Shown here: positions 523 through 44,769 of the stretch, one piece after another | Layout of the letters: each line of letters starts with the position of its first letter | Numbering within the stretch: position 1 is the stretch's first letter | DNA from: a virus | Taxonomy: Duplodnaviria; Caudoviricetes | Length of the DNA stretch: 53,681 bases | Reading direction: 5' to 3' (one strand) | Virus record (IMG/VR): IMGVR_UViG_3300025645_000098 | Span: 1-53,681 of that record | The notes under the pieces: model-generated | Told to the model about the DNA's origin: nothing | Databases searched by the model: none | Seen by the model: the letters and a program-made list of their open reading frames with translations, nothing else | Made by a program: the position numbers and the translations under genes

Positions 523-589
523 GGGTATATCGTCTAATTAGGTTAGGATAGCTCTGAGCAAGATATAGGTTCGATTCCTATTGTATTCT
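523..589 (+). ncRNA. tRNA-like element with truncated anticodon arm
   Basis: D arm and T arm (ATAGG-TTCGATT-CCTAT) intact; anticodon arm reduced to GCTCTGAGC. Confidence 0.55.
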
Positions 590-17736: not shown

Positions 17737-19401
17737 ATGAAAAAAGTTATTATTACGATGTTTTTGTTGTGCACATCATTAATCTTCGCACAACTACCAG
17801 ATGGTTACGTTTCTGAACAATTAATTGACACTTATAACAGTCCAATGGACGTTGAATTTATTACTGGTAGACCTGATATGATGGTTATAGCTGAAAGAGC
17901 TGGTAAAATTTGGATAGCTGATTTAGTAAATGATAATTGGGTCAAGAGAGATAACCCAGTAATAGATATTACAAATCAAGTAACTACTTATTTTGAAAGA
18001 GGTATACAAAGTATCATTGTTGACAGACATTTTATTTATGTTTATTATACCGTTGAAGAGACTTATTTACTCCCAGGGTTAAATGAAGATGTAAATGATG
18101 ATTCAGCAACAATAAATAGGGTGTCTAGATGGGAAATATCATGGCCACAAAATATTGAGTTTGGTGAAGAAATATTAATTGGTAAAACACCATCTGATGG
18201 GATTCCATCTACAGCTGGAAATCATCAAGGTGGTGGTATGGCTTGGGGTGAGAATAACATGTTATTCGTTTCAACTGGCGATGGTGGAAGTGGTATTTTT
18301 AATCAACAAGCCATTGATAGAGGAATTATGAGAGCTGAATTAAATGTAAATGGGGGTAGTAAAAGTCAAATTATTAATTGTCTTAATGGAAAATTATTAA
18401 GAATTAATCCATGGAATGGTGATGGTGCTAACGGAAATCCATTTTATGATTCTAATAATAGACGAACACCAGAATCTAGGGTTTATGCTTTAGGGTTTAG
18501 AAATCCTTTTGATATAGTAGGTAAACCATATATGGGGGTTAATAATCAACCAACAACAATATACGTTGCTGATGTGGGTGAGGGTAATAAAGAAGAAGTT
18601 ACCCTAATAGATAAAGCTGGTTTAAATGCTGGGTGGGGGTTACGTGAAGGATTTAGTACTAGGACTTTATCTGGTAATAATCCAGATGAAGGCGTACCTT
18701 ATTCTGACCTTATGAGTGAAGCAACTTCATTTGTTGAAGTGTCTGACGATACACAAAGACGATTTACACATCATCCACCTGAATTAGATTATGGGCATAG
18801 TGGAAACCCATTAACTAGATTACCTAGATTTACTGATGGGGTATTAGACCCAATAATTGATGTAAACGCCATTGAAGGAAATTCAATTACTGGTGGTGCT
18901 TATATATCTGGTGATGGTTTTGGTGAAAATTATAACGGTGCTTATATATTTAGTGATTATTCTAGAGGTTGGTTGAATATTGGAATACCTTATGTAGACC
19001 AAAGTAATGATAGATATTTTGATTATATAGAAGAATTTGCACCAATTAATTCTTATCCAGTTACAATAGATATTACTCAAAACCCAATTGATGGGTCAAT
19101 ATATATAGTAACATTATTTGGAGATATTCATAGAATTTCTTTAAGTGAAACATTATCAATTCAAACTCCATCATTAAATGATGAAATTAAAATTATTTAT
19201 GATAATAATACTAATCTTAATTCTATTGTTGGTATTAATAATATGGCAACACTAAAAATATATGATTCATTAGGTAGATTTATATCTGAAGATACAATCT
19301 ATGATTACCATATTATTGATTATAAATTACAGAGTGGTATTTATATTGCTCATATTATAAATGATAGTAATATATTGGTAAAAAAATTCATTATTAAATA
19401 A
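17737..19401 (+). CDS. PQQ-dependent sugar (glucose/sorbosone) dehydrogenase-like protein with T9SS C-terminal domain
   Basis: Signal peptide; HQGGGMAWG, STGDGG, GKLLRINP, YALGFRNP, ADVG; C-terminus KIYDSLGR...SGIYI...KKFIIK. Confidence 0.88.
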   Translation: MKKVIITMFLLCTSLIFAQLPDGYVSEQLIDTYNSPMDVEFITGRPDMMVIAERAGKIWIADLVNDNWVKRDNPVIDITNQVTTYFERGIQSIIVDRHFIYVYYTVEETYLLPGLNEDVNDDSATINRVSRWEISWPQNIEFGEEILIGKTPSDGIPSTAGNHQGGGMAWGENNMLFVSTGDGGSGIFNQQAIDRGIMRAELNVNGGSKSQIINCLNGKLLRINPWNGDGANGNPFYDSNNRRTPESRVYALGFRNPFDIVGKPYMGVNNQPTTIYVADVGEGNKEEVTLIDKAGLNAGWGLREGFSTRTLSGNNPDEGVPYSDLMSEATSFVEVSDDTQRRFTHHPPELDYGHSGNPLTRLPRFTDGVLDPIIDVNAIEGNSITGGAYISGDGFGENYNGAYIFSDYSRGWLNIGIPYVDQSNDRYFDYIEEFAPINSYPVTIDITQNPIDGSIYIVTLFGDIHRISLSETLSIQTPSLNDEIKIIYDNNTNLNSIVGINNMATLKIYDSLGRFISEDTIYDYHIIDYKLQSGIYIAHIINDSNILVKKFIIK

Positions 19402-19448
19402 TTGATTTACAATAGTTTAATATTTTTTTAAAAAAAAAACTATAAAAA

Positions 19449-19649
19449 ACTTGTTTTATTAGATATAATAACATATATTTGTAGTGTAATAAAAAAGTTG
19501 ATATTTTGATACGCAATTTGCGCTAAGAGGGAATCACTACCAAAATAAAAACTTTTTAAAAAAAAATGTAAAAAAAACTTGTTTATTAAAAAATAAGTTG
19601 TATATTTGCAGAGTAGTTTAAAAGCTACCAAACGTTCTTAAAAATATTG
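19449..19649 (+). promoter_or_regulatory. Tandem Bacteroidetes-type promoters plus boxA-like element
   Basis: ACTTG...TATATTTG at 19474 and 19601; GTTCTTAAAAATATTG at 19634. Confidence 0.65.
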
Positions 19650-19657
19650 AAAATAAT

Positions 19658-20472
19658 GGGGTGCTTATGCTCCTGTCTCTTCGGAGACTAAGATAAATCC
19701 AGCAATGGTATTTAAAGTGATGTCTATACAAGGCATTGCGTTATTGAGACTTCGGTTTTAGTAATCTATGTAAGCATATTGACTACGGGAAAGCATCAAG
19801 GGTCGACTGACTTAGATGACAAACCCACTTCCTAGCTTCGGGAAGTTGAGATAGAAATATCAATAGATGGTTAATAGATTTTGGTTGAAACGTGTAAAAA
19901 GCGGATAGGCTGATTTCATCATAATTTGTTATGGAATGTTCAATGTGACACTTCTTTAAGCTCTACTGGAAACAGTACCTTAAAAAGTTAACTGAGGTAA
20001 ATCTAAGTAATGAAGAAATGACGTGACTGTAAAAAGTTACAACGGGGTGTTGTAAGCTACACTGGTCCAAAGCCAGCACGCTTGTCAATCGCAAGACGCA
20101 TCCTGTAAGAGAGAGCATCGCTATTCTATGGTTGGTTAATAGCCAACGTTTTTAATGTAATAAAAATCAGAAAAGTAAAAGTTCTTGCGACCATGGATAC
20201 AAAATTAAGTTATGCTGCTGTAATATGTAGCTAGTGAAAGCTCACAAGGCTGAAACTAAAACGAAAAATAGGTATCGTTAGTAAGAGGGTAGTGCCTTTT
20301 CATCCTCACAAGGGAGCTAGGTAGTGAAATTGGTTTATATCAGTTCATGGTAAAAGAGTTCGCAGTCACTATAAGACTGTCTTAATAATGTCTACCAGAA
20401 CGAAAGTCGAGGTGTGTGCGCTAGGGAAACCAGATGTAAAATGATATTAATAACGCCCAACACTCAAGCGTT
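19658..20472 (+). ncRNA. Large structured RNA, ~815 nt, GOLLD-like candidate
   Basis: ORF-free and less AT-rich; many UUCG/GNRA-capped hairpins (GTCTC-TTCG-GAGAC, GATA-GAAA-TATC, TACTG-GAAA-CAGTA); next to tRNA-like elements. Confidence 0.65.
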
Positions 20473-20476
20473 AAAC

Positions 20477-20544
20477 GGGGATATCGACTAACTTGAAGTC
20501 GCTGCTTTTGAAGTAGAAATGTAGTATCGAATCTACTATCCCCA
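20477..20544 (+). ncRNA. Short tRNA-like element
   Basis: GGGGATA/TATCCCC-A acceptor, D-like arm, CTGCT/AGTAG stem with 5-nt loop, altered T arm. Confidence 0.5.
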
Positions 20545-20648
20545 CTAAAATTTCATTATAAAATACCTATAACGTATGGTATTAAAGAATGTAACTGAAT
20601 ACAAGATTCGTAATCTACTTTTATATTCAAAATAATGATTTTTAAAAA

Positions 20649-20728
20649 GGGGATGTAGTCGGACCTGTTGTGAAGGCAGTGATTCCGTAATCGTACTGAA
20701 AATGCAACTGTGAGTGTTGCCATTTCCA
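20649..20728 (+). ncRNA. Novel tRNA-like RNA, copy 1
   Basis: GGGGATG/CATTTCC-A acceptor; GCAAC-TGTGAGT-GTTGC arm; covaries with copies 2 and 3. Confidence 0.75.
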
Positions 20729-20853
20729 CTAGAGGTTCTCATTTATCCAAAAATGTGTGGTGGAGCTACAAATGCCCAATGACCCAACCTTGAGTTGGTT
20801 GTTACGACAAGGAGCGTAATGTAAAACACTAGAGATTAGTCACTCTGGCGAAA

Positions 20854-20930
20854 GGGGATGTAGCCAGACCAGCATTGAGCTGGTATCTGTAATCATGCTG
20901 AAAATGCTACTGTAAGTGTAGCCATCTCCA
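20854..20930 (+). ncRNA. Novel tRNA-like RNA, copy 2
   Basis: GGGGATG/CATCTCC-A acceptor; GCTAC-TGTAAGT-GTAGC arm. Confidence 0.75.
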
Positions 20931-21023
20931 CTAAAAATATTCATAGTTTAGTTACTATGTTAATTACCTAACCCAGTGAAATGCTGGTTTATCAAATAAA
21001 TGCAGAGGGTAAATATTTTAATC

Positions 21024-21102
21024 GGGGGTATAACCAGACCAGTCATGCGACTGTGATTCTGTAACCAAGTTGAAAATGTTATTGTAAATGTAACTACCCC
21101 CA
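21024..21102 (+). ncRNA. Novel tRNA-like RNA, copy 3
   Basis: GGGGGTA/TACCCCC-A acceptor; GTTAT-TGTAAAT-GTAAC arm. Confidence 0.75.
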
Positions 21103-21194
21103 CTAAAAATATTGAGTTTAATTTTGCGGTTCAGTTCTCAATTTAAAAAAAACTAGGTGGGGTGTTAAAACCCCATCGTAAACGCCCAAAAAAA

Positions 21195-21383
21195 ATGAAT
21201 GATTATCAATTAGTAAATGAAAATATTTCAATAACAAGAAATTGGAATTTAAACGATTGGAGAGATTTCAGAAGTAGATATGAGTATTGGGAAACCAAAG
21301 ATAGGCTCATGAAACAAAAACAATATTTTGCCTTTAAGAAGTTCAAAAACAACGCTTTAAAGGCTTATATTAGAAGAAAATAA
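21195..21383 (+). CDS. Small hypothetical protein
   Basis: ORF MNDYQLVNE... with A-rich Bacteroidetes-type initiation region. Confidence 0.5.
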   Translation: MNDYQLVNENISITRNWNLNDWRDFRSRYEYWETKDRLMKQKQYFAFKKFKNNALKAYIRRK

Positions 21384-21474
21384 AAAAAAGATTAAAAAAA
21401 CATTGTATTTTAAGATACTTTTATGTATCTTTGAACTATATATTAATAACAGCGAAAGCTAACAATTAGAAATT

Positions 21475-21576
21475 ATGACAATTACAACGACATATACGAA
21501 ACAGTATCAACCGACAGGCGGGAAGCCTCAAGGTAAACTGGGTATGCGTTGTAACGAAGACCAAGAATTATGGTAA
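21475..21576 (+). CDS. Putative attenuator leader peptide (33 aa)
   Basis: MTITTTYTKQYQPTGGKPQGKLGMRCNEDQELW, between promoter TATCTTTG (21426) and a terminator. Confidence 0.65.
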   Translation: MTITTTYTKQYQPTGGKPQGKLGMRCNEDQELW

Positions 21577-21603
21577 TATAATTCTAGTCGATAGACAATA
21601 TAC

Positions 21604-21642
21604 AAAAACCCAGTTGATAAAACAATTTCAACTGGGTTTTTT
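21604..21642 (+). terminator. Intrinsic terminator (attenuator) before the tRNA array
   Basis: AAAAACCCAGTTGA/TCAACTGGGTTTTTT hairpin with T tract. Confidence 0.85.
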
Positions 21643-21674
21643 GCGTTTAATAGTTTCCAAATCTATAAAATTGG

Positions 21675-21690
21675 GTTCTTTGAAATATTG
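21675..21690 (+). promoter_or_regulatory. boxA-like antitermination element
   Basis: GTTCTTTGAAATATTG immediately before the first tRNA; resembles rrn boxA. Confidence 0.55.
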
Positions 21691-21699
21691 TATTTTTAT

Positions 21700-21771
21700 C
21701 GGGAATGTGTTGTAAAGGTTGCATACCGCTTTTGGAAAGCGGAGGTCAGAGTTCGAATCTCTCATTCCCGA
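21700..21771 (+). tRNA. tRNA-Pro(TGG)
   Basis: CGGGAAT/ATTCCCG acceptor; CCGCT-TTTGGAA-AGCGG. Confidence 0.88.
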
Positions 21772-21887
21772 AATAATCGAGTTAATCTACTTCCACGTAG
21801 TGATTATTGGAAACAGGTAATGCTGGCTAAAAGATTAACAAAAAAATTCCATTATCATAATTTAGATATTGAAGAAATGAAAACTAA

Positions 21888-21970
21888 CGGGAAGTGACCA
21901 AGGTAAAATGAAAAAAGGCTACGGGGCCTTGGATGCCTCAGTATGGTCGGTTCGATTCCGACCTTCCCGA
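21888..21970 (+). tRNA. tRNA-Pro(TGG), aberrant D arm
   Basis: CGGGAAG/CTTCCCG acceptor; GGGGC-CTTGGAT-GCCTC; expanded A-rich D region. Confidence 0.65.
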
Positions 21971-22030
21971 CGACCAGACTGTTATTAATTCATAGAAGGA
22001 GAAACGTATCCTAGCATAGAATTAAATTAT

Positions 22031-22103
22031 TGGGATGTGGTGTAATGGTAACACAGCTGGTTTTGAGCCAGCACGAGTGAGGGTTCGAATCCGTCCATCC
22101 CAT
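22031..22103 (+). tRNA. tRNA-Gln(TTG)
   Basis: TGGGATG/CATCCCA acceptor; GCTGG-TTTTGAG-CCAGC. Confidence 0.85.
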
Positions 22104-22171
22104 CAATAGTGTTCATTTTAAATGAGTGTTCAGTGACAATGAACAGAGCAAAATAATGAACATTCAAAAAT

Positions 22172-22253
22172 GGGGTACCGCCAACGTTGGAGAGTTGGAC
22201 CAGTCTGTAAAACTGGTGCGTAAGCTGAGTAGGTTCGAATCCTATGTGCCCCA
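22172..22253 (+). tRNA. tRNA-Tyr(GTA)
   Basis: GGGGTAC/GTGCCCC acceptor; CCAGT-CTGTAAA-ACTGG; variable arm. Confidence 0.9.
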
Positions 22254-22392
22254 CAAAAAGAGGATATTATTTGGTGAGTAACTTATTGAACCAGTTGTAC
22301 TGATATAAGTGAAGTGACAAGTAAGAAGATTGGATATGCCAATTGTACAACAACGCCTGACTTTAGCGAGTTTGGTAATCTTCCTCTTTAAA

Positions 22393-22501
22393 TGGCTGTA
22401 GTGAATAGGTCACCTTTCAATCATATTAATTTAGTTGAATGAGAATGGATATGTGAGCGTTACATCATATCGTCGGTTGGGTTCGAATCCCTTCGCAGCC
22501 G
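22393..22501 (+). ncRNA. Degenerate tRNA-like element with long core
   Basis: GGCTG/CAGCC closing helix and GGG-TTCGAAT-CCC T arm. Confidence 0.4.
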
Positions 22502-22664
22502 CTAAAATTTGAATTATGAAAATGATAGAATTAAAACATTCAGGTGAGATATCACCAGAAGCAAAAGAAAAATTAAACAAGAGGATTTTCAACCGTAATA
22601 AACGTTTGAAAGAAATGAAAGAAGCGTATTTGAATGGTGAATATGATGAAATGTTTAATAAAAT

Positions 22665-22737
22665 ACCCTCGTAGCAAACTGGTCGTAGGCAACTCCCTTT
22701 TAAGGAGTGGGGCTGGGTTCGACTCCCAGCGGGGGTA
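22665..22737 (+). tRNA. tRNA-Lys(TTT)
   Basis: ACCCTCG/CGGGGGT acceptor; ACTCC-CTTTTAA-GGAGT. Confidence 0.9.
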
Positions 22738-22792
22738 CTGGAAGTAGATGTCTTTATTAATTTAGCATCTAGGAAGAATAGAAATTAAATTT

Positions 22793-22866
22793 GCTCTGTA
22801 CGCATAAAAGGTGGTGCACTAGATTTGTAACCTAGAATAGAATCGGTTCGATACCGATACAGAGCT
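22793..22866 (+). tRNA. tRNA-Thr(TGT)
   Basis: GCTCTGT/ACAGAGC acceptor; CTAGA-TTTGTAA-CCTAG. Confidence 0.85.
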
Positions 22867-22931
22867 CAGAATGTGGAAAAACATCGCTCCCGTAATGCCA
22901 CGGCTCATGCATGAGTAACGGGAGACAAATT

Positions 22932-23021
22932 GGGTATGTATGCAAATTGGCTGAAGCGAGCAGACTGTAAATCTGTAGGTGTTGAAAGACCCCATTGGGA
23001 GTTCGAATCTCTCCATGCCCA
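22932..23021 (+). tRNA. tRNA-Tyr(GTA)
   Basis: GGGTATG/CATGCCC acceptor; GCAGA-CTGTAAA-TCTGT; long variable arm. Confidence 0.88.
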
Positions 23022-23195
23022 CTATACATGTAGAAAGCAATTATTAATGTCTAGCTTCAGCTTCGTGGAGAGGTCAGGCTACAATCTGGTGATAAGATTA
23101 ATTACCTTAAGGCAGATACGTTAGGAATTGTGAAATATTGGCCTATGGTGTAACTGGTTAACATATCGGCCTTTGACTCCGATGTGGTTATTTAT

Positions 23196-23269
23196 TGGGG
23201 TATCGTCTAGCGGTCTAAGACGCTTGGTTTTGAACCAAGAAAGCGTGAGTTCGAATCTCTCTACCCTAA
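23196..23269 (+). tRNA. tRNA-Gln(TTG), nested inside the split tRNA
   Basis: TGGGGTA/TACCCTA acceptor; CTTGG-TTTTGAA-CCAAG. Confidence 0.85.
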
Positions 23270-23325
23270 CTTTGAATTTTTATTGAACTTCAAAGAGTTT
23301 TTAGATATTTATAATAAAAGATATC

Positions 23326-23733
23326 ATGAAAAAAATTTGTACTAAATGTAAAGTAGAAAAAAACACTACTGAGTTCAATAAAAAAAATAGAAATAAAGAT
23401 GGTTTATCTTCACAATGTCGTGAATGTAATAAATTAAATTTAAAAGCTCATTATAATAATAATAAAAAGTATTATAAAGAAAGGAATATTAATAAACGTA
23501 ATGAGTTAAAAGAATGGTTTTTAGAATATAAAAAGACATTGAAGTGTAGTGTTTGTTCAGAATCTAGATATTGGGTTTTAGACTTTCATCATAGAGACCC
23601 TAATAAAAAAGAGGGGGCGATAAGTTATCTATTAGGTAGATATGGTAAAAATAAAGCCTTAAAAGAAATTGAGAAATGTGATGTAGTATGCGCTAATTGT
23701 CATAGAGATATACACCATAAAATGGAAAATTAG
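23326..23733 (+). CDS. HNH endonuclease
   Basis: CTKC, CREC, CSVC, VLDFHHRDP, EIEKCDVVCANCHRDIH. Confidence 0.9.
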   Translation: MKKICTKCKVEKNTTEFNKKNRNKDGLSSQCRECNKLNLKAHYNNNKKYYKERNINKRNELKEWFLEYKKTLKCSVCSESRYWVLDFHHRDPNKKEGAISYLLGRYGKNKALKEIEKCDVVCANCHRDIHHKMEN

Positions 23734-23803
23734 TGTGGGTTCGAGTCCCACTGGGCCATCAAAGAGGGAGGTGACACCAGACATCTTTAATAAATTGGTA
23801 TAA

Positions 23804-23892
23804 CCGAGAGTATCCGTAGCTAGGCGAACGGTCCAGCCTTTTAAGCTGATGAGTTAATGACTCCACCGTGGGTTCGATTCCCACCTCTCGGA
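23804..23892 (+). tRNA. tRNA with TTT (Lys) anticodon and long variable arm
   Basis: CCGAGAG/CTCTCGG-A acceptor; CAGC-CTTTTAA-GCTG; variable arm GAGTT-AAT-GACTC. Confidence 0.7.
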
Positions 23893-23901
23893 CAAATAAA
23901 A

Positions 23902-23986
23902 TCTCGTATAGGTGTAATGGAACATACTAGTTAAGCACGGTAGCTATAGGGTTACAGGAGGGGGGTTCGAATCCTTCATAGGAGAC
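23902..23986 (+). ncRNA. Degenerate tRNA-like element
   Basis: D-like arm GTGTAATGGAACAT and GGTTCGAATCC T arm; no canonical anticodon arm. Confidence 0.4.
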
Positions 23987-23990
23987 AAAT

Positions 23991-24076
23991 GCGGTGATAG
24001 TGTCAATTTGGAAAGTTCTAGAATAACACGCAGCCTTTCCACGGCTGAGATATAGGTTCGAGTCCTATTCACCGCT
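23991..24076 (+). tRNA. tRNA-Gly(TCC), enlarged D loop
   Basis: GCGGTGA/TCACCGC acceptor; CAGCC-TTTCCAC-GGCTG. Confidence 0.8.
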
Positions 24077-24091
24077 CTAAAATTTAATAAA

Positions 24092-24289
24092 ATGGATGAT
24101 TCAATGCAAATGGAATTATATCAATTCCTAATGAGAAACTTATCTATATCAGTTGATATGGGTACGGAATATGAAACTTATGGTGAGTATGCTACATGCA
24201 ACGTTACTTTAAGTTTAAGAAACCCAGAAACTGGTGAAATGGAAGTGATTGGAAACGCTTACGATTCAGTTTCAATAAATAGAGATTAA
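24092..24289 (+). CDS. Small hypothetical protein
   Basis: ORF between tRNA genes. Confidence 0.6.
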   Translation: MDDSMQMELYQFLMRNLSISVDMGTEYETYGEYATCNVTLSLRNPETGEMEVIGNAYDSVSINRD

Positions 24290-24308
24290 TTACCGTTAAT
24301 TACCAGAT

Positions 24309-24382
24309 GCACCTGTAGTTTAATAGGTTTAAAATTCTTCTGTGGTATGGAAGAGACCCCAGTTCGATTCTGGGTGGGTGCT
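24309..24382 (+). tRNA. tRNA-Thr(GGT)
   Basis: GCACCTG/TGGGTGC acceptor; CTTCT-GTGGTAT-GGAAG. Confidence 0.7.
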
Positions 24383-24458
24383 CAATGAGGAAAAAACAAA
24401 CCCAGCTTGAAGTACATAAGATACATTGGTTGAGAGCTGACTCAACCTTTCCTCAAAC

Positions 24459-24532
24459 GCAGATGACGCATAAGTGGTGGTGCGCCAGCCTTCCAAGCTG
24501 GAATAGACTCGGTTCGATTCCGAGTATCTGCA
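24459..24532 (+). tRNA. tRNA-Gly(TCC)
   Basis: GCAGATG/TATCTGC acceptor; CCAGC-CTTCCAA-GCTGG. Confidence 0.9.
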
Positions 24533-24543
24533 CTTTAGAATAA

Positions 24544-24626
24544 GCGGGTATCGTATAACGGTAGCGAAAGCGATATTATATTGGTCTTCCAAATCAAAGA
24601 TGAGGGTTCGATTCCCTCTACCCGCC
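24544..24626 (+). tRNA. tRNA-Gly(TCC), hairpin inserted in D loop
   Basis: GCGGGTA/TACCCGC acceptor; TTGGT-CTTCCAA-ATCAA; GC-GAAA-GC inside the D loop. Confidence 0.8.
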
Positions 24627-24665
24627 AATTTTAAAAATAGAATATTAATTTAAAAATACAATATT

Positions 24666-24824
24666 ATGTGCTGTGATGCAAGTGATTATTCCGAAAATGA
24701 AATAGATGGAGAATGTCTCGATTGTGGTGGTCCAACAGTAGATGGAGATGCTTATGATTGTTGTGGTTATTCACCATTAGATTGTGAAACATGTGGTTCC
24801 AGACCATGTGACCTAAGTTGTTAA
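24666..24824 (+). CDS. Small Cys-rich protein (52 aa, 10 Cys)
   Basis: MCCDASDYSENEIDGECLDCGGPTVDGDAYDCCGYSPLDCETCGSRPCDLSC; below ORF-track cutoff. Confidence 0.7.
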   Translation: MCCDASDYSENEIDGECLDCGGPTVDGDAYDCCGYSPLDCETCGSRPCDLSC

Positions 24825-24830
24825 AAAATT

Positions 24831-24864
24831 AACCCTATCATTTATTTGGTGGGGTTATTTTTTT
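24831..24864 (+). repeat. 34-nt direct repeat (terminator/promoter unit), copy 1
   Basis: AACCCTATCATTTATTTGGTGGGGTTATTTTTTT, identical at 28503-28536. Confidence 0.85.
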
Positions 24865-24897
24865 TTAGTATCTTTGTATAAATATTAAATATAATAT

Positions 24898-25776
24898 ATG
24901 AAAAATTTTGCAATCTCAAACGAGAGAATTACAAAAAGAGAAACACGTTCAATGAATTCATATTTTAATGAATTGAATAAAATACCTTTATTAACATCAG
25001 ACGAAGAAGTTGAATTGGCAACTCTTAGTAAAAATGGTGATGAAAATGCTAGACAGAAATTAGTTAAACATAATTTAAGATTTGTTGTTAGTATTGCTAA
25101 AAAATATACTACCCCAAATATTAAGATTGAAGATTTGATTAATGAAGGAAATATCGGTCTTATCATTGCCTCTCAAAAATTTGACCCAACAAGAGGATTC
25201 AAATTTATTTCTTATGCTGTATGGTGGATTAGGCAACAAATGTCGGCTTATATTTCTCAAACTTCAAAAATTATTAGGACTCCTGATAATAAAAATAATG
25301 AATTGTATGCAATAAAAAAGTGTGTTAGTTTACTAGAACAAGAATTAGAACGTAAGCCATCTTATGATGAAATAATAGAAGTATTAGAAAAATCTTATTC
25401 TGAAGCCAGTATTAATTTCTTTCTCAATAGAGATAGAATTTTTACTAAATCATTAGATGAACAATTCACTGAAAATTCAGATTCGGGTTCGTTAATTGAT
25501 TCAATTAGGGATTCAAATAGTAATAACCCAAGCAATACTTTAGATTCAACTCATTCAATATATAATATAAATACATTATTAAATAAATTAAATGAACGGG
25601 AATCGTTGGTTCTTCAATTATTATTTGGTTTTAATGGTTATGAACCTAAAACTCCGAAGGAAATTGCTATTGAATTAGGTGTTACATCAACTTTAATTTT
25701 AGTGATAAAACGTAAAGCACTTAAAAAATTAAAATATAAACTACAAGGTAATGCCAGTTGGATGATTGAAAATTAA
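24898..25776 (+). CDS. RNA polymerase sigma-70 factor (Bacteroidetes RpoD-like, no region 1.1)
   Basis: LVKHNLRFVVSIAKKY, DLINEGNIGL, FDPTRGFKFISYAVWWIRQ, region-4 HTH. Confidence 0.93.
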   Translation: MKNFAISNERITKRETRSMNSYFNELNKIPLLTSDEEVELATLSKNGDENARQKLVKHNLRFVVSIAKKYTTPNIKIEDLINEGNIGLIIASQKFDPTRGFKFISYAVWWIRQQMSAYISQTSKIIRTPDNKNNELYAIKKCVSLLEQELERKPSYDEIIEVLEKSYSEASINFFLNRDRIFTKSLDEQFTENSDSGSLIDSIRDSNSNNPSNTLDSTHSIYNINTLLNKLNERESLVLQLLFGFNGYEPKTPKEIAIELGVTSTLILVIKRKALKKLKYKLQGNASWMIEN

Positions 25777-31918: not shown

Positions 31919-32175
31919 AAAATAAGTCAGAGAATCTAACGCTTGGGTATAACTTGATTATACCCAAGAGGAAGTTCAGGACATCTCTCTGAGATGTGGA
32001 AGTTGAGAGACGTTATACCACAGCAACATGGGATGCAACACAAATTTCTTAGCAAGAGACTCAGATTGCGATAATAGATTGGTAGTGGCACCAGCATGAA
32101 AAACTGGATGAATCATAAGGTTCATAGTTAAATGTTAGAATAGAACAAAATCTTGGCTAAGCTCAACTTATTTTT
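31919..32175 (+). ncRNA. rnpB: Compact RNase P RNA
   Basis: P1 AAATAAGT/ACTTATTT; P2 TCTAAC/GTTAGA; P3 hairpin; GAGGAAGTTCAGG and ACAAAATCTTGGCTAA P4 strands; GATGCAACACAAAT. Confidence 0.75.
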
Positions 32176-32202: not shown

Positions 32203-32976
32203 ATGAATAAATTATACGGAGCAATATTAGGTGACCTAGCGGGTATGCCTTATGAAAAGAAGTTCAATCTTAAGTTGGAAGATATTAAGATACACCCAGA
32301 CAATGCAGTTGTAACTGATGATACTATCATGACGTTAGCGGCAGCATCTAAGTTGGTTAAGAATACTAGCTACGATGTGGAATATAGAATCTGGGGTAAT
32401 GAATACTTCAGTGACTATTACGGTAAGTCATTTAAAGAGTGGCTTAAGGATGATGAAATGGTTGTAGATTCATATGGTAACGGTTGTTTAATGAGGATGT
32501 CACCAGTACCATATGCTTATAGAGGTGATAAGATTAATAGTTCAATAGAAGCTCTTAAAAGTACTGCATCATCACACACAAATCTACATTCTAGGTTTAG
32601 TAGTCAAGTATTGAATGATATATATCATATGATATTTGAAAACTATAAGAAAGAAGAAATTCATGATTGGATTGATTTTTATTATCCATTTCCACCTACC
32701 TTTCAACCATTTAAAGAGATTGATGCAACTGCACAAGGTACATTACCTTTTGTGTTATATGTATTTTTATCAACTGATTCAACCCATGAAGCAATATTAA
32801 AAGCCATTTCATTTGGTGGTGATACTGATACCAACGCATCTATTGTTGGTGAGTTATCTAATGCTTACTATAATGATTTAACTCAAGAAGATATTGAGTA
32901 TGTGGAATCACATTTGGACTTACGTCAATTGGAAATGTTACACGAATTTAATAAATATACGAAGGTAAAGGTATGA
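32203..32976 (+). CDS. ADP-ribosylglycohydrolase (DraG/ARH family)
   Basis: GAILGDLAG, TDDT, SYGNGCLMR, GGDTDTNASIVG. Confidence 0.92.
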   Translation: MNKLYGAILGDLAGMPYEKKFNLKLEDIKIHPDNAVVTDDTIMTLAAASKLVKNTSYDVEYRIWGNEYFSDYYGKSFKEWLKDDEMVVDSYGNGCLMRMSPVPYAYRGDKINSSIEALKSTASSHTNLHSRFSSQVLNDIYHMIFENYKKEEIHDWIDFYYPFPPTFQPFKEIDATAQGTLPFVLYVFLSTDSTHEAILKAISFGGDTDTNASIVGELSNAYYNDLTQEDIEYVESHLDLRQLEMLHEFNKYTKVKV

Positions 32977-33404
32977 TTAATTTGTTTAAAGGTGAATATG
33001 CTTGGTTAAGTAACATGATATTGGTTAATGTGAAATACGATGGGATTGAATATCCATCAGTGGAACATGGTTATATGTCAGCCAAATCAGATGATATGGT
33101 TTGGAAAAGTAGATGTGCCGATAAACAAATACCACCAAAACAAATAAAAAAAGAATCTAAGGATATTGATTTAAGAGACGATTGGGATGATGTAAAAATT
33201 GATGTAATGCGAGAATGCCTTAAAGAAAAATTCAATCAAGAACCTTTTAAAACTTTATTAATTAACACTAAAAATCAAGACCTTATTGAAGGTAATTGGT
33301 GGAACGATACCTTTTGGGGTGTCGATATAGTTACAGGTGAAGGTGAGAATAATTTAGGTAAATTAATCATGCAAATAAGATATGAGAATAGAACAAAAGA
33401 ATAA
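32973..33404 (+). CDS. NADAR (YbiA-like) protein
   Basis: LSN, YPSVEH, DWDDVK, KFNQ, LIEGNWWNDTFWG, GENNLGKLIMQIR. Confidence 0.92.
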   Translation: MINLFKGEYAWLSNMILVNVKYDGIEYPSVEHGYMSAKSDDMVWKSRCADKQIPPKQIKKESKDIDLRDDWDDVKIDVMRECLKEKFNQEPFKTLLINTKNQDLIEGNWWNDTFWGVDIVTGEGENNLGKLIMQIRYENRTKE

Positions 33405-33789
33405 ATTAATTGCTGATTATATGGGGTTAGAACCCTATGAAGATAGTAGATATGGAACTTTATGGTCAAGTCCAGTAAAGGGGGAAACAGGTTCTAATTT
33501 TGTTTTAAAATTTAATACGTCTTGGGATTGGTTAATGCCAGTGGTTGAAAAAATTTGTGCTTTTAATTATTACATTATCATTGATGGCAAAGAATTTTAT
33601 GTTGAAATGTTTGTATTAAAACAAGGTCTAAGTACAGTATCTTTTAATGTTAGAGAAAGGTGGAGTGGTAAGATAGAGTTTACAACTAGCAGTAGGTTTA
33701 ATGAAGACATTAAAAGCGATTTAGAGGCACATTATTATTGTGTATTAGAATATATAAAATGGTATAATAAAAATGGAACAAAAGAATAA
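33382..33789 (+). CDS. Hypothetical phage protein (WDWLMPVVEKI family)
   Basis: Paralog of the next ORF. Confidence 0.7.
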   Translation: MRIEQKNKLIADYMGLEPYEDSRYGTLWSSPVKGETGSNFVLKFNTSWDWLMPVVEKICAFNYYIIIDGKEFYVEMFVLKQGLSTVSFNVRERWSGKIEFTTSSRFNEDIKSDLEAHYYCVLEYIKWYNKNGTKE

Positions 33790-34168
33790 ATTAATTGTAG
33801 AGTTTTTAGAACTTGAACCTTGTGACAGATGTGTTAATTATGGTGGGTTTTATTGTTCACCACATGGCCAACCTACATCATCACACAGCATTATTAACAC
33901 ACCATCTGAAATGAAATATCATTTATGGTGGGATTGGCTAATGCCAGTGGTTGAAAAAATTGAATCAATCTACCATGAAGACCATGGTTATTTTGGGGTA
34001 TATATTTCATCTAATGGTTGCACAATTCAAGGTACCAAATTTAGACCTGATGCTAAAGTAGTTAAGGTTTATTATGATAACGTTGTGTTAAGCACAAAAA
34101 TAGAATCCACTTATGAATGTGTTATTAGATTTATTAAGTGGTATTTAAAAAACATAAAGAACAAATAA
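33773..34168 (+). CDS. Hypothetical phage protein (WDWLMPVVEKI family)
   Basis: Shares NKLI..F/Y, WDWLMPVVEKI and IKWY motifs with 33382. Confidence 0.7.
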   Translation: MEQKNKLIVEFLELEPCDRCVNYGGFYCSPHGQPTSSHSIINTPSEMKYHLWWDWLMPVVEKIESIYHEDHGYFGVYISSNGCTIQGTKFRPDAKVVKVYYDNVVLSTKIESTYECVIRFIKWYLKNIKNK

Positions 34169-34422
34169 TGTTAGCAGAAATACTTGAACAATACTCTGAT
34201 GAAGAGTTATTATTAGCCGATGGTTTCGATGAAGCCGTAATCGGCATAATGAGTGATTTTTCTGAACCAAGATTAATCTATTCTGTTAAGAAATGTCTTG
34301 AAATATTAATGACTAGAGATGAGATGAGTGATATTGATGCTCTGGAATATTTCACTTATAATGTTTCTGGTGGATGGGTTGGTGAGAAGACACCAGTTTG
34401 GTGTTGGGATGATTTTGAGTAA
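34168..34422 (+). CDS. Conserved phage hypothetical protein
   Basis: ADGFDEAVIG...ALEYFTYNVSGGWVGEKTP. Confidence 0.75.
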   Translation: MLAEILEQYSDEELLLADGFDEAVIGIMSDFSEPRLIYSVKKCLEILMTRDEMSDIDALEYFTYNVSGGWVGEKTPVWCWDDFE

Positions 34423-34696
34423 TAAAAACTTGCTTTTATCAATTACTTTTCGTATCTTTGTGATATAACAATTAAAAATTGAGAGATGAGTATTATTAAA
34501 ATTAATAGTTCCCAAGAACCAAGATTTATTTCAGAATGTTCAAAACATATTAGTGATGTACTAAATACCAAAGTAACCTTCAGTGAAGTAGCTGATGAAT
34601 TACTTTTATATAAATGGGGTTCACCACCAATAAACGAAGTTGTATCAAAATTTATGATAACTTTTTTGGAAGATGTTACAATTAATAAGTAAAATT

Positions 34697-35338
34697 ATGT
34701 TAATACAATTAGTAGATAGAAATCAAGGTATGTGTGATGCATGGACTACAGAGTTCATGGATTGTGAAGATGTAATCATCTATTGTGATGATTTCTTTGC
34801 ACCTAAAACAGACTGTATCGTTTCTCCAGCAAACTCATTCGGATTTATGGATGGTGGATTGGATGGTGTTATCACAAGACGTTTGGGGAGACAAACCGAA
34901 ACCAATGTTAAGACTGCAATTGCTAATAGACCAATGAATGAGTTGTTGGTTGGTGAAGCGTTAGTTGTTGAAACTGGTAATAAGGAAATACCATATTGTA
35001 TTTCGGCACCAACGATGAGGGTGCCAATGATATTGAAAGGTACACCAAATGCTTATTTGGCCGCTAAAGCCACTTTTAATTTATTGAAAGATTTAAAAGA
35101 GAGTGAAGATTGGATAAATGGAATTAAAATTGAAAAAATAACTATTAGTGGTTTAGGCACTGGAGTGGGTCAAGTACCATATGAAGTATGTGCCAATCAA
35201 ATGAAAATGGCGTATGATGAAGTGTGGTTAGGTAAATTTGGGGCACCAAAGACTTGGTTTGATGCACAACAAAGACATCAAATGTTATATCATACTGATG
35301 TAAATAACACAAGAGATTTACAACATCCAGAAGAATGA
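34697..35338 (+). CDS. Macro domain (Appr-1-p processing) protein
   Basis: IVSPANSFGFMDGGLD, APTMRVP, GLGTGVG. Confidence 0.92.
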   Translation: MLIQLVDRNQGMCDAWTTEFMDCEDVIIYCDDFFAPKTDCIVSPANSFGFMDGGLDGVITRRLGRQTETNVKTAIANRPMNELLVGEALVVETGNKEIPYCISAPTMRVPMILKGTPNAYLAAKATFNLLKDLKESEDWINGIKIEKITISGLGTGVGQVPYEVCANQMKMAYDEVWLGKFGAPKTWFDAQQRHQMLYHTDVNNTRDLQHPEE

Positions 35339-36024: not shown

Positions 36025-36576
36025 ATGAAGAATAATAGTAAATTTTTAAGTCTGGTATTAAGACATAAACCTGAAACTATAGGGTTAAAATTAGATAAGA
36101 ATGGTTGGGTTGCAATTGGTAGATTATTAGACCAAATGGAAATCCATGACCGTATGATAGATTATGAAGAGTTAATGGAAATTGTTGAAAACAATGATAA
36201 AAAACGATTTGAAATCAAAGAGCTTGATAGAGATAATGGATATTATAACCTTATTAGGGCCTCACAAGGTCATAGTGTTAAGGTTGACCTTGAATTGAAA
36301 GCTGAAAGACCCCCAATGAAATTATATCATGGTACTGTTGATAAATTTATCGATGTTATCATGAAAGATGGTCTTAAGAAAATGAATAGACATGCAGTTC
36401 ATTTAAGTGGAGATATTTCAACAGCTACCAAAGTTGGTAGTCGTAGAGGTAAAGCCATCATATTAGAAGTTAATTCAGGTGCTATGTATGCCGATAGAAT
36501 TAAGTTCTTTAAATCAAAGAATGGTGTTTGGTTAACAGATAGTGTTGACCCTAAATATATTAAAATCAAAAAGTAA
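36025..36576 (+). CDS. kptA: RNA 2'-phosphotransferase (Tpt1/KptA)
   Basis: SKFLSLVLRH, NDKKRF, IRASQGHS, LYHGT, RHAVHLS, NGVWLT. Confidence 0.95.
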   Translation: MKNNSKFLSLVLRHKPETIGLKLDKNGWVAIGRLLDQMEIHDRMIDYEELMEIVENNDKKRFEIKELDRDNGYYNLIRASQGHSVKVDLELKAERPPMKLYHGTVDKFIDVIMKDGLKKMNRHAVHLSGDISTATKVGSRRGKAIILEVNSGAMYADRIKFFKSKNGVWLTDSVDPKYIKIKK

Positions 36577-36764
36577 TGTTTAGTATTAAGCGAAAAACAA
36601 GATATGAAAATAGGTATCACCCAAATATGGGTAGACTTAAATGTAGGGTAACTAGAATATATAAAACTATATTTGGTATACCTTATAAAGAAGTTCATGC
36701 ATACCGAGAAACATATTACGGTGAAGTTAAAGAACTAGACGATTGTATATTAAAAAAATAAAAA

Positions 36765-38425: not shown

Positions 38426-38793
38426 AAAAAACAATTGAATATTTTTCGGAAGATGGATGTCTTGGTGGTAACCGTGGGTTGTCTTTCAACTTTAAAACAA
38501 ATATTATAACTAAATGGAATGGTGAGGAAGAACCACTATCTATGGATAATGTTGATGTTGTTAAATGGTGTATAGATATGAATATTAAGAAACTTAAAGA
38601 AAGGATTATTAACTTACAGTTAAAGTTAACTCAAAAGAAAAATAAAACTGTTAGAATTGAAGGTGGTTATAAAATGTCTGAAGTTCTAACTGAAGAAAGA
38701 AAAATTATCTTTAATAATAAATTATCTAATTTATTATTAAAACTTGAGTGGTTTGAATCCCTCCAAACAAAACCATTAATAACTAGTCTGTAA
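38422..38793 (+). CDS. Hypothetical protein
   Basis: Coupled ORF. Confidence 0.6.
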   Translation: MKKTIEYFSEDGCLGGNRGLSFNFKTNIITKWNGEEEPLSMDNVDVVKWCIDMNIKKLKERIINLQLKLTQKKNKTVRIEGGYKMSEVLTEERKIIFNNKLSNLLLKLEWFESLQTKPLITSL

Positions 38794-38822
38794 GTGGAAA
38801 ATAAGACACCACACAATATATT

Positions 38823-43777: not shown

Positions 43778-43778
43778 G

Positions 43779-44702: not shown

Positions 44703-44769
44703 TGAGTGAGACAAAACATTATTAAAATAAATTTTGTTTAATGATTTATTTTTCGTATCTTTGTCGTAA

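What the first reader, a model, noticed from the sequence alone, without database searches (positions are those of the whole stretch)
20649..21102. Three covarying copies of an unfamiliar ~80-nt tRNA-like RNA
Seen: copies at 20649, 20854 and 21024 share four helices with compensatory changes. Acceptor: GGGGATG/CAT(T/C)TCC versus GGGGGTA/TACCCCC, each followed by ACT. P2: TAGT/ACTG, TAGC/GCTG, TAAC/GTTG. P3: CGGA/TCCG versus CAGA/TCTG, capped by a variable hairpin. T-like arm: GCAAC/GTTGC, GCTAC/GTAGC, GTTAT/GTAAC, with a TGTRART loop instead of TTCGAAT. There is no D or anticodon arm. Copies 1 and 2 have G3:U70 and A73, the AlaRS identity elements also used by tmRNA. I do not recognise this as a known family. 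Inference: aminoacylatable tRNA mimics/decoys, or processing punctuation that releases the structured spacers between them.
Basis: partly seen in the sequence, partly recalled or inferred. Interest (0 to 1): 0.85.

Follow-up and report, generated by a model that had tools for sequence, protein, structure and literature searches.

The report
Anticodon-less alanine-type tRNA mimics in phage
A fragment of a giant lake phage carries three copies of a small, conserved RNA gene that keeps the amino-acid-accepting half of an alanine tRNA but has no codon-reading arm, sitting between a cage-forming GOLLD-like RNA and the phage's tRNA genes; it fits no catalogued RNA family and its job is untested.

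Summary
Copies at 20649-20728, 20854-20930 and 21024-21102 (+) share a 7-bp acceptor stem, a D-stem-like helix carrying a variable hairpin, and a 5-bp arm with a UGURARU loop. There is no anticodon arm. ARAGORN and Rfam 15 miss them, even at E<=10. Covariance models and pattern scans found 10 further distinct sequences, in 4 viral contigs and 20 of 21 metagenome stretches, and none in 185,579 species genomes. Across the 13 distinct sequences, 97.3% of cells pair and 12 of 20 pairs show compensatory changes. RNAalifold on an independent alignment finds the same helices. G3:U70 is kept in 12 of 13 and A73 in 13 of 13. Only 2 of 62 ordinary tRNA-shaped genes of the same loci have G3:U70. Every locus with enough upstream sequence has the ~0.8-kb GOLLD-like RNA upstream and a tRNA array downstream. 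RNA-library contigs cover copies 1-2 at low depth. Best reading: non-decoding, probably alanine-chargeable tRNA mimics, matured like tRNAs. Their target is unknown. The scan has noted similar mimics in other phages, but none alike in sequence.

The parts
20649..20728 (+). Copy 1 of the tRNA-like RNA (80 nt; G3:U70, G4:U69, A73)
   Evidence: Sequence; models R1/R2 96.1/94.8 bits; lies inside RNA-library contigs of runs X8, X9, X10
20854..20930 (+). Copy 2 (77 nt; G3:U70, A73). Its acceptor GGGGATG/CATCTCC differs from the phage tRNA-Ala acceptor at one base pair.
   Evidence: covered by RNA-library contigs
21024..21102 (+). Copy 3 (79 nt; G3:C70, A73). It is the only family member without the G:U pair.
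   Evidence: RNA-library contigs stop at 21005-21027 and do not cover it
19668..20468 (+). GOLLD-like large RNA directly upstream (context, probably the same operon)
   Evidence: Rfam RF02032 at 20042-20470, 65.9 bits, below the gathering score of 150, E 5.9e-16. RNA-library contigs at depth 15-800 run from 19666-19670 to 20468, where the sequencing adapter follows in X9 and X10. Full-length homologues at 72-86% identity lie upstream of the element in 19 loci.
20477..20544 (+). Degenerate tRNA-like element '#0', starting 9 nt after the RNA end seen at 20468 (context)
   Evidence: Fold z = -2.56; weak R1 hit of 17.7 bits; its counterparts in relatives score as tRNA (44.6-47.3 bits)
21699..24626 (+). 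tRNA array downstream (Pro, Gln, Tyr, Lys, Thr, Gly, several duplicated or non-canonical) (context)
21195..21383 (+). Small conserved ORF (62 aa) 92 nt after copy 3; no known family (context, possible partner)
   Evidence: Found downstream of the element in 10 related loci, 42-69% identity over 33-39 aa; 6 database relatives without names or Pfam domains; no Pfam or PHROG hit

Best explanation
The three repeats are genes of a small, conserved family of 76-86-nt tRNA-like RNAs carried by a clade of uncultured large phages. Each keeps the 'top half' of a tRNA: a 7-bp acceptor stem stacked on a 5-bp T-like stem with a 7-nt loop that retains the U1/A5 positions of a T-loop. Each also keeps the acceptor-stem marks that alanyl-tRNA synthetase reads (G1:C72, G2:C71, G3:U70, A73). 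The anticodon arm is missing. In its place, a D-stem-like helix (P2) continues through a 7-nt bulge (UAAYCRU) into P3 and a variable closed hairpin. By inference, this gives an L-shaped molecule with a blind tip. The genes lie on the same strand as the GOLLD-like RNA upstream and the tRNA array downstream, and their leaders and trailers resemble those of the neighbouring tRNAs. The likely pathway, all inferred, is: transcription in the GOLLD/tRNA region; 5' cleavage by RNase P and 3' trimming; CCA addition; charging with alanine by host AlaRS for the copies with G3:U70. Because they cannot decode, they would act as mimics that occupy or divert a factor reading the tRNA top half. Candidates are AlaRS, EF-Tu, SmpB/trans-translation, or a tRNA-end-directed host toxin. 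Shown here: the structure, its conservation, its genomic linkage and its presence in RNA libraries. Inferred: processing, charging and target.
For: Structure: 97.3% of cells pair and 12 of 20 pairs have compensatory changes in 13 distinct sequences; 0 of 500 shuffles reach this, and slid controls pair at 33-51%. RNAalifold on an independent alignment gives the same helices. Not a catalogued family: no ARAGORN call and no Rfam hit at gathering score or at E<=10. Alanine marks: G3:U70 in 12 of 13, A73, G1:C72 and G2:C71 in 13 of 13, and G4:C69 in 10 of 13, while pairs 4-7 covary. G3:U70 occurs in 11 of 12 elements that a simple stem scanner picks up, but in only 2 of 62 other tRNA-shaped sequences of the same 11 loci, one being tRNA-Ala(UGC) at 14-86. 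The acceptor of copy 2 differs from that tRNA-Ala at one pair. tRNA-like setting: in G002 the element starts 7 nt after a tRNA-like gene. Trailers start CTA in 11 of 13, like several true tRNAs of the window. Linkage: a GOLLD-like RNA lies upstream in 19 of 19 loci that hold enough upstream sequence (Rfam GOLLD 65.9-97.4 bits in the window and 5 of the distinct relative loci, and one partial match of 32.1 bits). A tRNA array lies downstream. Expression: contigs from three of the four RNA libraries laid cover 20567-21027 at depth 3-10, while the flanks 19400-19600 and 21117-22400 have none in those three runs, so uniform DNA carry-over is unlikely. Genome setting: the same fragment encodes Tpt1/KptA, Thg1-like, 2H phosphoesterase, an RNA-repair HAD domain, Macro and NAD-salvage genes. 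This is the RNA-repair and conflict toolkit described for jumbo phages (PMC7824862, passages read).
Against: No mature ends, CCA or aminoacylation were seen; the RNA data are assembled contigs, which cannot show small RNAs, strands or ends. The T-like loop is UGURARU, not UUCRANY, and the closing pair is Y53:G61 instead of G53:C61. Recognition by RNase P, the CCA-adding enzyme, EF-Tu or modification enzymes is therefore not assured. Copy 3 has G3:C70, so at least one copy works, if it works, without alanine identity. The 13 sequences fall into about six lineages of one phage clade, so conservation of G3:U70 rests on few independent events. The RNA contigs run through copies 1 and 2 together with their spacers, so excision is at best partial, or only precursors were captured. 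The family is narrow: 4 other viral contigs, 20 metagenome stretches (some duplicating the viral ones), and none in 50,697 phage records at blastn level.
Confidence: 0.55

Rival explanations
1. Pure processing punctuation. The elements are only RNase P / RNase Z recognition modules that cut the GOLLD-tRNA primary transcript into pieces, as the tRNA-like mascRNA defines the 3' end of MALAT1 (recalled knowledge). The small RNAs themselves would be by-products.
For: The GOLLD-like RNA ends at 20468 in two RNA libraries, with the adapter following, 9 nt before tRNA-like element #0. RNA contigs of two runs stop at 21026-21027, at the 5' edge of copy 3. The elements lie in a tRNA-dense region.
Against: A cleavage signal has no need to keep G3:U70 (12 of 13), an invariant UGURARU loop, the UAAYCRU bulge or the UGAAAAU linker. 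The spacers it would release are not notably structured. RNA contigs run uninterrupted across copies 1 and 2. The stops at 21026-21027 are 3-4 nt inside copy 3, not at its first base.
Confidence: 0.15
2. A tag-less tmRNA analogue. The RNA acts like a tmRNA tRNA-like domain (TLD) alone, binding SmpB and blocking or replacing host trans-translation, as proposed for the 'TLD only' tmRNA gene of mycobacteriophage DS6A.
For: Same logic and topology: a three-way junction of acceptor stem, T-arm and one long helix; G3:U70 and A73; no anticodon; phage-encoded. PMC4131195 (passages read) says a TLD-like molecule strongly inhibits tmRNA, perhaps by titrating SmpB. [quoted passage not shown]
Against: No tmRNA model touches the elements at E<=10, including RF04321, which models only the TLD. 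ARAGORN, which also seeks tmRNA, reports none. The T-loop is not the canonical one that tmRNAs keep (recalled). The unpaired D-loop analogue that SmpB contacts in tmRNA (recalled) is replaced here by a paired stem with a 3'-side bulge. No smpB-like gene was seen among the 40 window ORFs scanned against Pfam, in a fragment estimated at 15% of the genome.
Confidence: 0.12
3. A partner or cargo of the GOLLD-like RNA. The mimic is made with the cage-forming RNA and acts with it, for example docked on or enclosed in the assembly.
For: The GOLLD-like RNA lies upstream in 19 of 19 informative loci. Kretsch et al. (bioRxiv 10.1101/2024.12.08.627333, passages read) note that GOLLD lies near tRNA islands, that tRNAs sometimes sit in its linker, and that the cage might hold tRNAs. 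Earlier notes of this scan report other anticodon-less tRNA mimics beside GOLLD in other phages (unchecked AI notes).
Against: Linkage within a single phage clade may be mere synteny. Distances from the GOLLD-like RNA end to the element vary from about 180 nt (window, to copy 1) and 233 nt (L023) to about 1580 nt (L146). RNA-contig depth of the element region is about 1% of that of the GOLLD-like RNA. No complementarity was tested.
Confidence: 0.1
4. An alanine donor for a non-ribosomal reaction. A charged, non-decoding Ala-RNA would feed a transferase (Fem-type, aminoacyl-lipid or peptide-modifying enzyme) without competing in translation.
For: Alanine identity combined with loss of decoding. 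Dedicated non-proteinogenic tRNAs are known in bacteria (recalled knowledge).
Against: No aminoacyl-tRNA-dependent transferase was found among the 40 window ORFs scanned against Pfam. Only about 15% of the genome is in hand.
Confidence: 0.05
5. Decaying tRNA-Ala pseudogenes or tandem-duplication debris with no function.
For: Only the window has three copies, and copy 3 has lost G3:U70. tRNA arrays in these phages are full of duplicated and odd tRNAs.
Against: Compensatory changes maintain all four helices across contigs whose flanking GOLLD-like RNA has diverged to 72-86% identity. Unpaired segments are nearly invariant.
Confidence: 0.03

Closest known systems
tRNA-like domain of tmRNA, especially tag-less ('TLD only', CDS-less) forms such as that of mycobacteriophage DS6A (PMC4131195; PMC11915505; passages read)
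   Same: Acceptor stem plus T-arm with G3:U70 and A73; no anticodon; one long helix replaces the lower half of the tRNA; phage-encoded; expected to be read by AlaRS.
   Different: No hit to any tmRNA covariance model or by ARAGORN. The T-loop is UGURARU with a Y53:G61 closing pair. A paired D-stem with a grafted hairpin and a 3' bulge stands where tmRNA has an open D-loop. There are no pseudoknots and no tag frame. The element sits in a GOLLD/tRNA operon.
Canonical tRNA-Ala (Rfam RF00005), e.g. the phage's own tRNA-Ala(UGC) at window 14-86
   Same: 7-bp acceptor stem GGGGAU(G/A), G3:U70, A73, U8-A9-G10-C11 start of the D region, 5-nt variable-loop-like linker, 5-bp T-stem with a 7-nt loop, tRNA-like leader and trailer.
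   Different: The anticodon arm is absent altogether. The D-loop is replaced by a hairpin plus a 7-nt bulge. The T-loop is not UUCRANY. The tRNA model gives no hit even at E<=10.
tRNA-like 3'-end processing modules (mascRNA of MALAT1, Rfam RF01684; recalled knowledge)
   Same: A tRNA-shaped element placed after a long structured non-coding RNA, which could recruit RNase P.
   Different: This description fits element #0 (20477-20544) better than the three copies. The copies keep aminoacylation marks that a cleavage signal does not need. No RF01684 hit falls on them.
Other anticodon-less tRNA mimics reported by earlier agents of this scan (alanine-type mimics in several phage groups; tRNA-Glu-type mimics beside GOLLD). 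These are unchecked AI notes.
   Same: Same theme: a phage-encoded, non-decoding tRNA shape, often with a hairpin in the D-loop, with alanine identity or GOLLD adjacency.
   Different: No sequence look-alike of this element is in the scan's index. This one combines alanine identity, complete loss of the anticodon arm, a non-canonical T-loop and GOLLD linkage.
Stable RNAs of unknown function in the phage T4 tRNA cluster (species 1 and 2 RNAs, rnaC/rnaD; recalled knowledge, not checked here)
   Same: Small stable RNAs encoded among phage tRNA genes and matured with them.
   Different: No sequence or structure comparison was made here.

Membership tests
tRNA (RF00005) | Cloverleaf with an anticodon arm and a 7-nt anticodon loop | tested here: not met
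   No ARAGORN call. No RF00005 hit on 20649-21102 at E<=10. Only 5 nt lie between P2 and the T-like stem.
tRNA (RF00005) | 7-bp acceptor stem stacked on a 5-bp T-stem with a 7-nt loop, and an unpaired discriminator | tested here: met
   Pairs 1-7/66-72 are 98.9% paired and the T-stem 100% paired in 13 sequences; A73 in 13 of 13.
tRNA (RF00005) | T-loop U54-U55-C56-R57-A58 and a G53:C61 closing pair (recalled consensus) | tested here: not met
   The loop is UGURARU in 13 of 13 and the closing pair is C:G, U:G or U:A. Only U54 and A58 are kept.
Alanine acceptor identity (AlaRS substrates) | G3:U70 wobble pair, with A73 and G2:C71 as minor elements (recalled knowledge) | tested here: met
   G3:U70 in 12 of 13 (not copy 3); A73 and G2:C71 in 13 of 13. 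Only 2 of 62 other tRNA-shaped genes in the same loci have G3:U70. This is sequence evidence only.
Alanine acceptor identity (AlaRS substrates) | Actual charging with alanine | not testable with these tools
   Needs an in vitro AlaRS assay or acid-gel / periodate analysis of RNA from infected cells.
tmRNA / tag-less tmRNA (RF00023, RF01849-51, RF04321) | Match to a tmRNA or TLD covariance model | tested here: not met
   No tmRNA-family hit overlaps the elements at E<=10. ARAGORN finds no tmRNA.
tmRNA / tag-less tmRNA | SmpB binding to the D-loop/P2a region | not testable with these tools
   No RNA-protein modelling tool was available; a binding assay is needed.
GOLLD RNA (RF02032), for the upstream neighbour and not the element itself | Score at or above the family's gathering threshold (150 bits) | tested here: not met
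   65.9 bits in the window and 72.7-97.4 bits in relatives, all full-length matches to the model with E 1e-16 to 1e-25. L023, L146 and L144 show no hit at E<=1, although their DNA is 79-84% identical to the window's RNA over ~830 nt. It is therefore called 'GOLLD-like' here.
RNase P substrate (pre-tRNA-like) | Cleavage at the 5' end of the acceptor stem | tested here: inconclusive
   The contig data cannot map ends. Contigs run across the 5' ends of copies 1 and 2 and stop 3-4 nt inside copy 3 in two runs.

The most novel reading that the evidence does not exclude
The element is an alanine-charged, non-decoding tRNA mimic that is a functional component of the GOLLD operon. It would be either the molecule that the GOLLD nanocage binds or encloses, or a phage tool that enters or blocks the host translation-rescue machinery (SmpB, EF-Tu, ribosome) while the cage RNA acts. 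Either way it would give the first concrete molecular partner for GOLLD RNA.
Probability: 0.15. Interest if true: 0.85.

Novelty: new variant of a known kind. Interest (0 to 1): 0.62.

Why it matters
tRNA mimics that carry an amino-acid identity but cannot decode are rare and informative; tmRNA and the plant-virus tRNA-like ends are the classic cases. This is a compact family supported by covariation. It keeps the alanine marks, has lost the whole anticodon arm, has a re-designed elbow, and in every case examined sits behind a GOLLD-like RNA, whose cage structure is known but whose function is not. That makes two open questions testable with simple reagents. Do phages use chargeable tRNA shells against a host factor that reads the tRNA top half? 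What does GOLLD work with? I found no description in print. Searches returned nothing on such an RNA. The closest items were the DS6A tag-less tmRNA and a catalogue of 10,006 unnamed viral RNA candidates (PMC10690425). That catalogue's supplementary tables, which I could not open, might list this motif.

Tried and rejected
A blastn search of 19900-21200 against 50,697 phage records gave no match.

The first pattern (T-arm only) gave 108 stretches. Of the 80 loci returned, only 2 were real by the model.

The pattern for tRNA-like element #0 gave 24 stretches. Only L004, L023, L118 and L129/L135 belong to this clade. The other loci show no tRNA-like genes nearby and gave no R2 hit at E<=1.

None of the 116 extra matches in the loci returned has both stems. 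That scan was incomplete.

The strict 42-nt pattern found nothing in the genomes of 185,579 species.

One of its 21 metagenome stretches (L145) is a chance match in what looks like coding sequence.

A weak R1 hit at 49737-49809 lies inside an ORF and was dropped.

The minus-strand ORFs overlapping the copies (20545-20742, 20960-21103) were rejected as genes because the stems covary.

The attP / partial-tRNA reading was rejected because the whole structure is conserved.

The consensus promoter and terminator scan was uninformative: 11 promoter-like sites against 12.0 expected.

In the RNA-library contigs, element #0, copy 3 and the tRNA array have no cover. Contigs cannot show absence, so no conclusion is drawn from this.

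I did not test complementarity between the hairpin loops and the GOLLD-like RNA, and I made no 3-D model.

The 381-kb contig that holds a relative of the small ORF could therefore not be examined.
Full report
WHAT IS THERE

The window is an IMG/VR virus record of 53,681 bases, estimated at 15% of a genome. It has about 30% G+C and nearly all long ORFs lie on the + strand. ARAGORN reports 11 tRNA genes, none of them here. Rfam 15 gives 10 matches at gathering score, all tRNA and none here. Even at E<=10 over 19800-25000, none of its 26 matches overlaps the copies.

IS IT MORE THAN CHANCE?

A covariance model built from the three copies (R1) finds only them in the window with filters off. They score 96-99 bits and the next hit scores 17.7 bits. 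Homologues were then found in other contigs by several routes.
- R1 over 80 pattern-selected viral loci gave one sequence, present in two contigs at 90.3 bits, one copy per contig.
- A locus found through the neighbouring sigma-factor gene gave a hit of 53.5 bits.
- A locus found through the tRNA-like element that follows the large RNA gave a hit of 71.4 bits.
- A 42-nt pattern of the invariant positions then matched 4 viral contigs, 21 metagenome stretches and no genome of 185,579 species.
- The second model (R2) confirms 20 of the 21 metagenome stretches, one of them cut by the locus end. The remaining one, L145, is a chance match.

Some metagenome records duplicate the viral ones; two have the same length, 110,535 nt.

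After removing identical rows, 13 distinct full-length sequences remain. On these:
- 97.3% of cells form standard pairs, against 86.1 +/- 1.2 in shuffles and 33-51% with partners slid.
- 12 of 20 pairs change on both sides.
- No shuffle of 500 reaches the covariation score.

That alignment was fitted to the model, so I repeated the test with RNAalifold on a plain MAFFT alignment. It predicts the same acceptor stem, P2 (3 bp), P3 (3 bp) and T-like arm, with 11 of 18 pairs compensatory. The apical hairpin differs in sequence and length between lineages but forms in the MFE folds of most members.

ANATOMY

The consensus is GGGRRYR-UARY-C..(hairpin)..G-UAAnYRW-RYUK-ARAAU-GYWAY-UGURARU-RUWRC-YRYnYCC-A. 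Four features resemble a tRNA.
- A 7-bp acceptor stem and an unpaired A73.
- U8-A9-G10-C11 immediately after the acceptor stem.
- A 5-nt linker where the variable loop would be.
- A 5-bp stem with a 7-nt loop abutting the acceptor 3' strand.

Three features do not.
- The anticodon arm is gone.
- The D-loop is replaced by P3, a variable hairpin and a conserved 7-nt bulge on the 3' side.
- The T-like loop is UGURARU with a Y:G closing pair. Only the U and A that make the T-loop's internal reverse-Hoogsteen pair (recalled knowledge) survive.

A true tRNA-Gly(UCC) in the same array (23991-24076) also has a hairpin grafted into its D-loop. ARAGORN missed it, and Rfam gives it a partial 26.8 bits. 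So P2 is best read as a D-stem, and 'no D arm' is too strong. By inference, P2, P3 and the hairpin stack into a closed arm about as long as the D/anticodon arm of a tRNA.

ALANINE MARKS

G3:U70 is kept in 12 of 13 sequences. A73, G1:C72 and G2:C71 are kept in 13 of 13, and G4:C69 in 10 of 13. Pairs 4-7 of the same stem show compensatory changes. A simple scanner for a 7-bp acceptor stem plus a 5-bp T-stem, run over the 11 distinct family loci, found G3:U70 in 11 of 12 elements; it drops the L118 variant because of a G4-A69 mismatch. Among 62 other tRNA-shaped sequences it found G3:U70 in only 2: tRNA-Ala(UGC) at 14-86 and an uncalled 67-nt element at 523-589. Copy 2's acceptor differs from that tRNA-Ala at one pair. 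Copy 3 is the only member with G3:C70. The 13 sequences represent about six lineages of one phage clade, so this evidence is suggestive, not conclusive.

SETTING

Directly upstream lies a large RNA. Rfam GOLLD matches 20042-20470 end to end at 65.9 bits, below the gathering score of 150, with E 5.9e-16. The 827 nt from 19650 to 20476 have full-length homologues at 72-86% identity upstream of the element in 19 loci. Of the 7 other loci searched:
- one is the chance match L145;
- one (L129) is the downstream half of a contig whose upstream half (L135) has the homologue;
- five hold too little upstream sequence, 0 to 533 nt.

Rfam scores the relatives' copies at 72.7-97.4 bits, gives one partial hit of 32.1 bits, and misses three. 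After the large RNA come one to three tRNA or tRNA-like genes, then the element, then an array rich in Pro, Gln, Tyr, Lys, Thr and Gly tRNAs. In the window the first of these tRNA-like genes is the degenerate element at 20477-20544. Only the window has three copies of the element; each other locus has one. Leaders are A/T-rich. Trailers start CTA in 11 of 13, as after several true tRNAs of the window.

The same fragment encodes:
- Tpt1/KptA, a Thg1-like enzyme, a calcineurin-like phosphoesterase, a 2H phosphoesterase and an RNA-repair HAD domain;
- a 296-aa protein with the class I Glu/Gln-tRNA synthetase catalytic domain;
- Macro, ADP-ribosylglycohydrolase, NUDIX, NAMPT and PRPP synthetase proteins.

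This matches the RNA-repair and NAD-conflict toolkit described for jumbo phages (PMC7824862, passages read).

EXPRESSION

Twenty-four runs hold part of 19600-21700, and 14 are on record as RNA. I laid the contigs of four freshwater metatranscriptome runs. They carry four study codes of one year and habitat, so they may be one campaign.
- The large RNA is covered from 19666-19670 to 20468 at contig depths of 15-800. In two runs the contig ends at 20468 and continues into the sequencing adapter, so an RNA end lies there, 9 nt before the tRNA-like element at 20477.
- The stretch 20567-21027 is covered at depth 3-10 in three runs, once by a single 461-nt contig that spans copies 1 and 2 and their spacers.
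- 19400-19600 and 21117-22400 have no cover in those three runs.

Region-specific cover argues against plain DNA carry-over. Contigs cannot give strands, ends or small-RNA levels, and a contig across two genes does not prove one transcript.

INTERPRETATION

The best-supported reading is a non-decoding tRNA mimic with alanine identity, matured like the neighbouring tRNAs and probably charged by AlaRS. It would act on some factor that reads the tRNA top half. I put this at 0.55. Structure and conservation are near certain, charging is about even odds, and the target is unknown.

Pure processing punctuation (0.15) fits the tRNA-like element at 20477 better than the three copies. It explains neither the kept G:U pair nor the invariant loops, and the spacers it would release fold no better than shuffles in two of three cases.

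A tag-less-tmRNA-like action on SmpB (0.12) has the only experimental precedent: DS6A (PMC4131195 and PMC11915505, passages read). But the element fails every tmRNA model.

A role with the GOLLD-like RNA (0.10) rests on strict linkage within a single clade and on the published idea that the cage might hold tRNAs (bioRxiv 10.1101/2024.12.08.627333, passages read).

The pseudogene reading is disfavoured by the covariation.

NOVELTY

There is no Rfam family for this RNA. I found no paper describing it in six searches: GOLLD+tRNA; GOLLD+tRNA-like; tRNA-like/phage/anticodon-less terms; TLD/SmpB/phage; U70/phage/tRNA-like/AlaRS; and phage tRNA/decoy terms. PMC10690425 lists 10,006 unnamed viral RNA candidates from IMG/VR. 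I read passages only, its supplements were closed, and this motif could be among them.

Earlier agents of this scan noted anticodon-less alanine-type mimics and GOLLD-adjacent tRNA-Glu-type mimics in other phages. The index holds none similar in sequence to this one. Those are unchecked AI notes. They gave me the DS6A lead, which I verified in the papers.

I class the finding as a new variant of a known kind (tRNA mimics). Interest is 0.62.

Noticed in passing
window 19668-20468 (+): An ~800-nt GOLLD-like RNA. Rfam RF02032 matches its 3' half at 65.9 bits, under the cut-off of 150. It is very abundant in four metatranscriptome runs (contig depth 15-800). Contigs start at 19666-19670, and an RNA end at 20468 is marked by adapter read-through in two runs.
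   Followed up: partly
window 20477-20544 (+): A degenerate tRNA-like element 9 nt after the GOLLD-like RNA end (acceptor GGGGATA/TATCCCC, A73, odd 4-bp T-stem). Its counterparts in relatives score as real tRNAs (44.6-47.3 bits). In L144/L146 it appears by eye to have a CUA anticodon. It may define the 3' end of the large RNA through RNase P, in the manner of mascRNA.
   Followed up: partly
window 31927-32164 (+): A sub-threshold match to bacterial RNase P class B (32.3 bits against a cut-off of 97; E 8e-7 in a 1.3-kb search). Most of the specificity domain is missing: 11 nt where the model has 103. A phage-encoded mini RNase P RNA would bear on how the odd T-loops are processed.
   Followed up: partly
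window 23991-24076, 21888-21970, 24544-24626, 523-589 (+): Further tRNA-shaped genes that ARAGORN misses. One is a tRNA-Gly(UCC) with a hairpin grafted into the D-loop (fold z = -3.6). One is an 83-nt RNA with a Pro-like acceptor (CGGGAAG/CTTCCCG), a normal T-arm and no obvious anticodon loop; a similar 83-nt sequence is in L023. One is an 83-nt RNA with a disturbed anticodon region. One is a 67-nt element with G3:U70.
   Followed up: partly
window 36025-39395, 49905-50426, 32203-35338, 40757-47099 (+): An RNA-repair and NAD-conflict island. It holds Tpt1/KptA, Thg1-like, calcineurin-like phosphoesterase, 2H phosphoesterase (also Acb1-like), YqeY, RNA-repair HAD domain, ADP-ribosylglycohydrolase, Macro, NUDIX, NAMPT and PRPP synthetase genes, plus a 296-aa protein with only the catalytic domain of class I Glu/Gln-tRNA synthetases.
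   Followed up: partly
window 21195-21383 (+): A 62-aa Trp-rich ORF (MNDYQLVNENISITRNW...) 92 nt after copy 3. It is conserved downstream of the element in 10 related loci and has six nameless database relatives, one of them seen on a contig of 381,124 nt. The 98 nt between copy 3 and the ORF are 92-97% identical in relatives, more conserved than the GOLLD-like RNA.
   Followed up: partly
L146 2291-2368 (+); window 21772-21838 (+): Weak ribozyme-model matches inside the tRNA regions: RAGATH-1 hammerhead at 48.9 bits (cut-off 56.3) in L146, and the F. prausnitzii HDV-like ribozyme at 25.2 bits (cut-off 44, E 0.14) right after tRNA-Pro in the window.
   Followed up: no
L146 3253-3328; L129 3447-3520: ARAGORN calls suppressor-type tRNAs in related phages (anticodons UUA and CUA). 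This hints at stop-codon reading in this clade. Window ORFs look intact under code 11.
   Followed up: no
window 24898-25776 and 50549-51418 (+): Two sigma-70-family factor genes in one fragment. The first lies just after the tRNA array and is 43% identical to the one in the syntenic contig L118.
   Followed up: no
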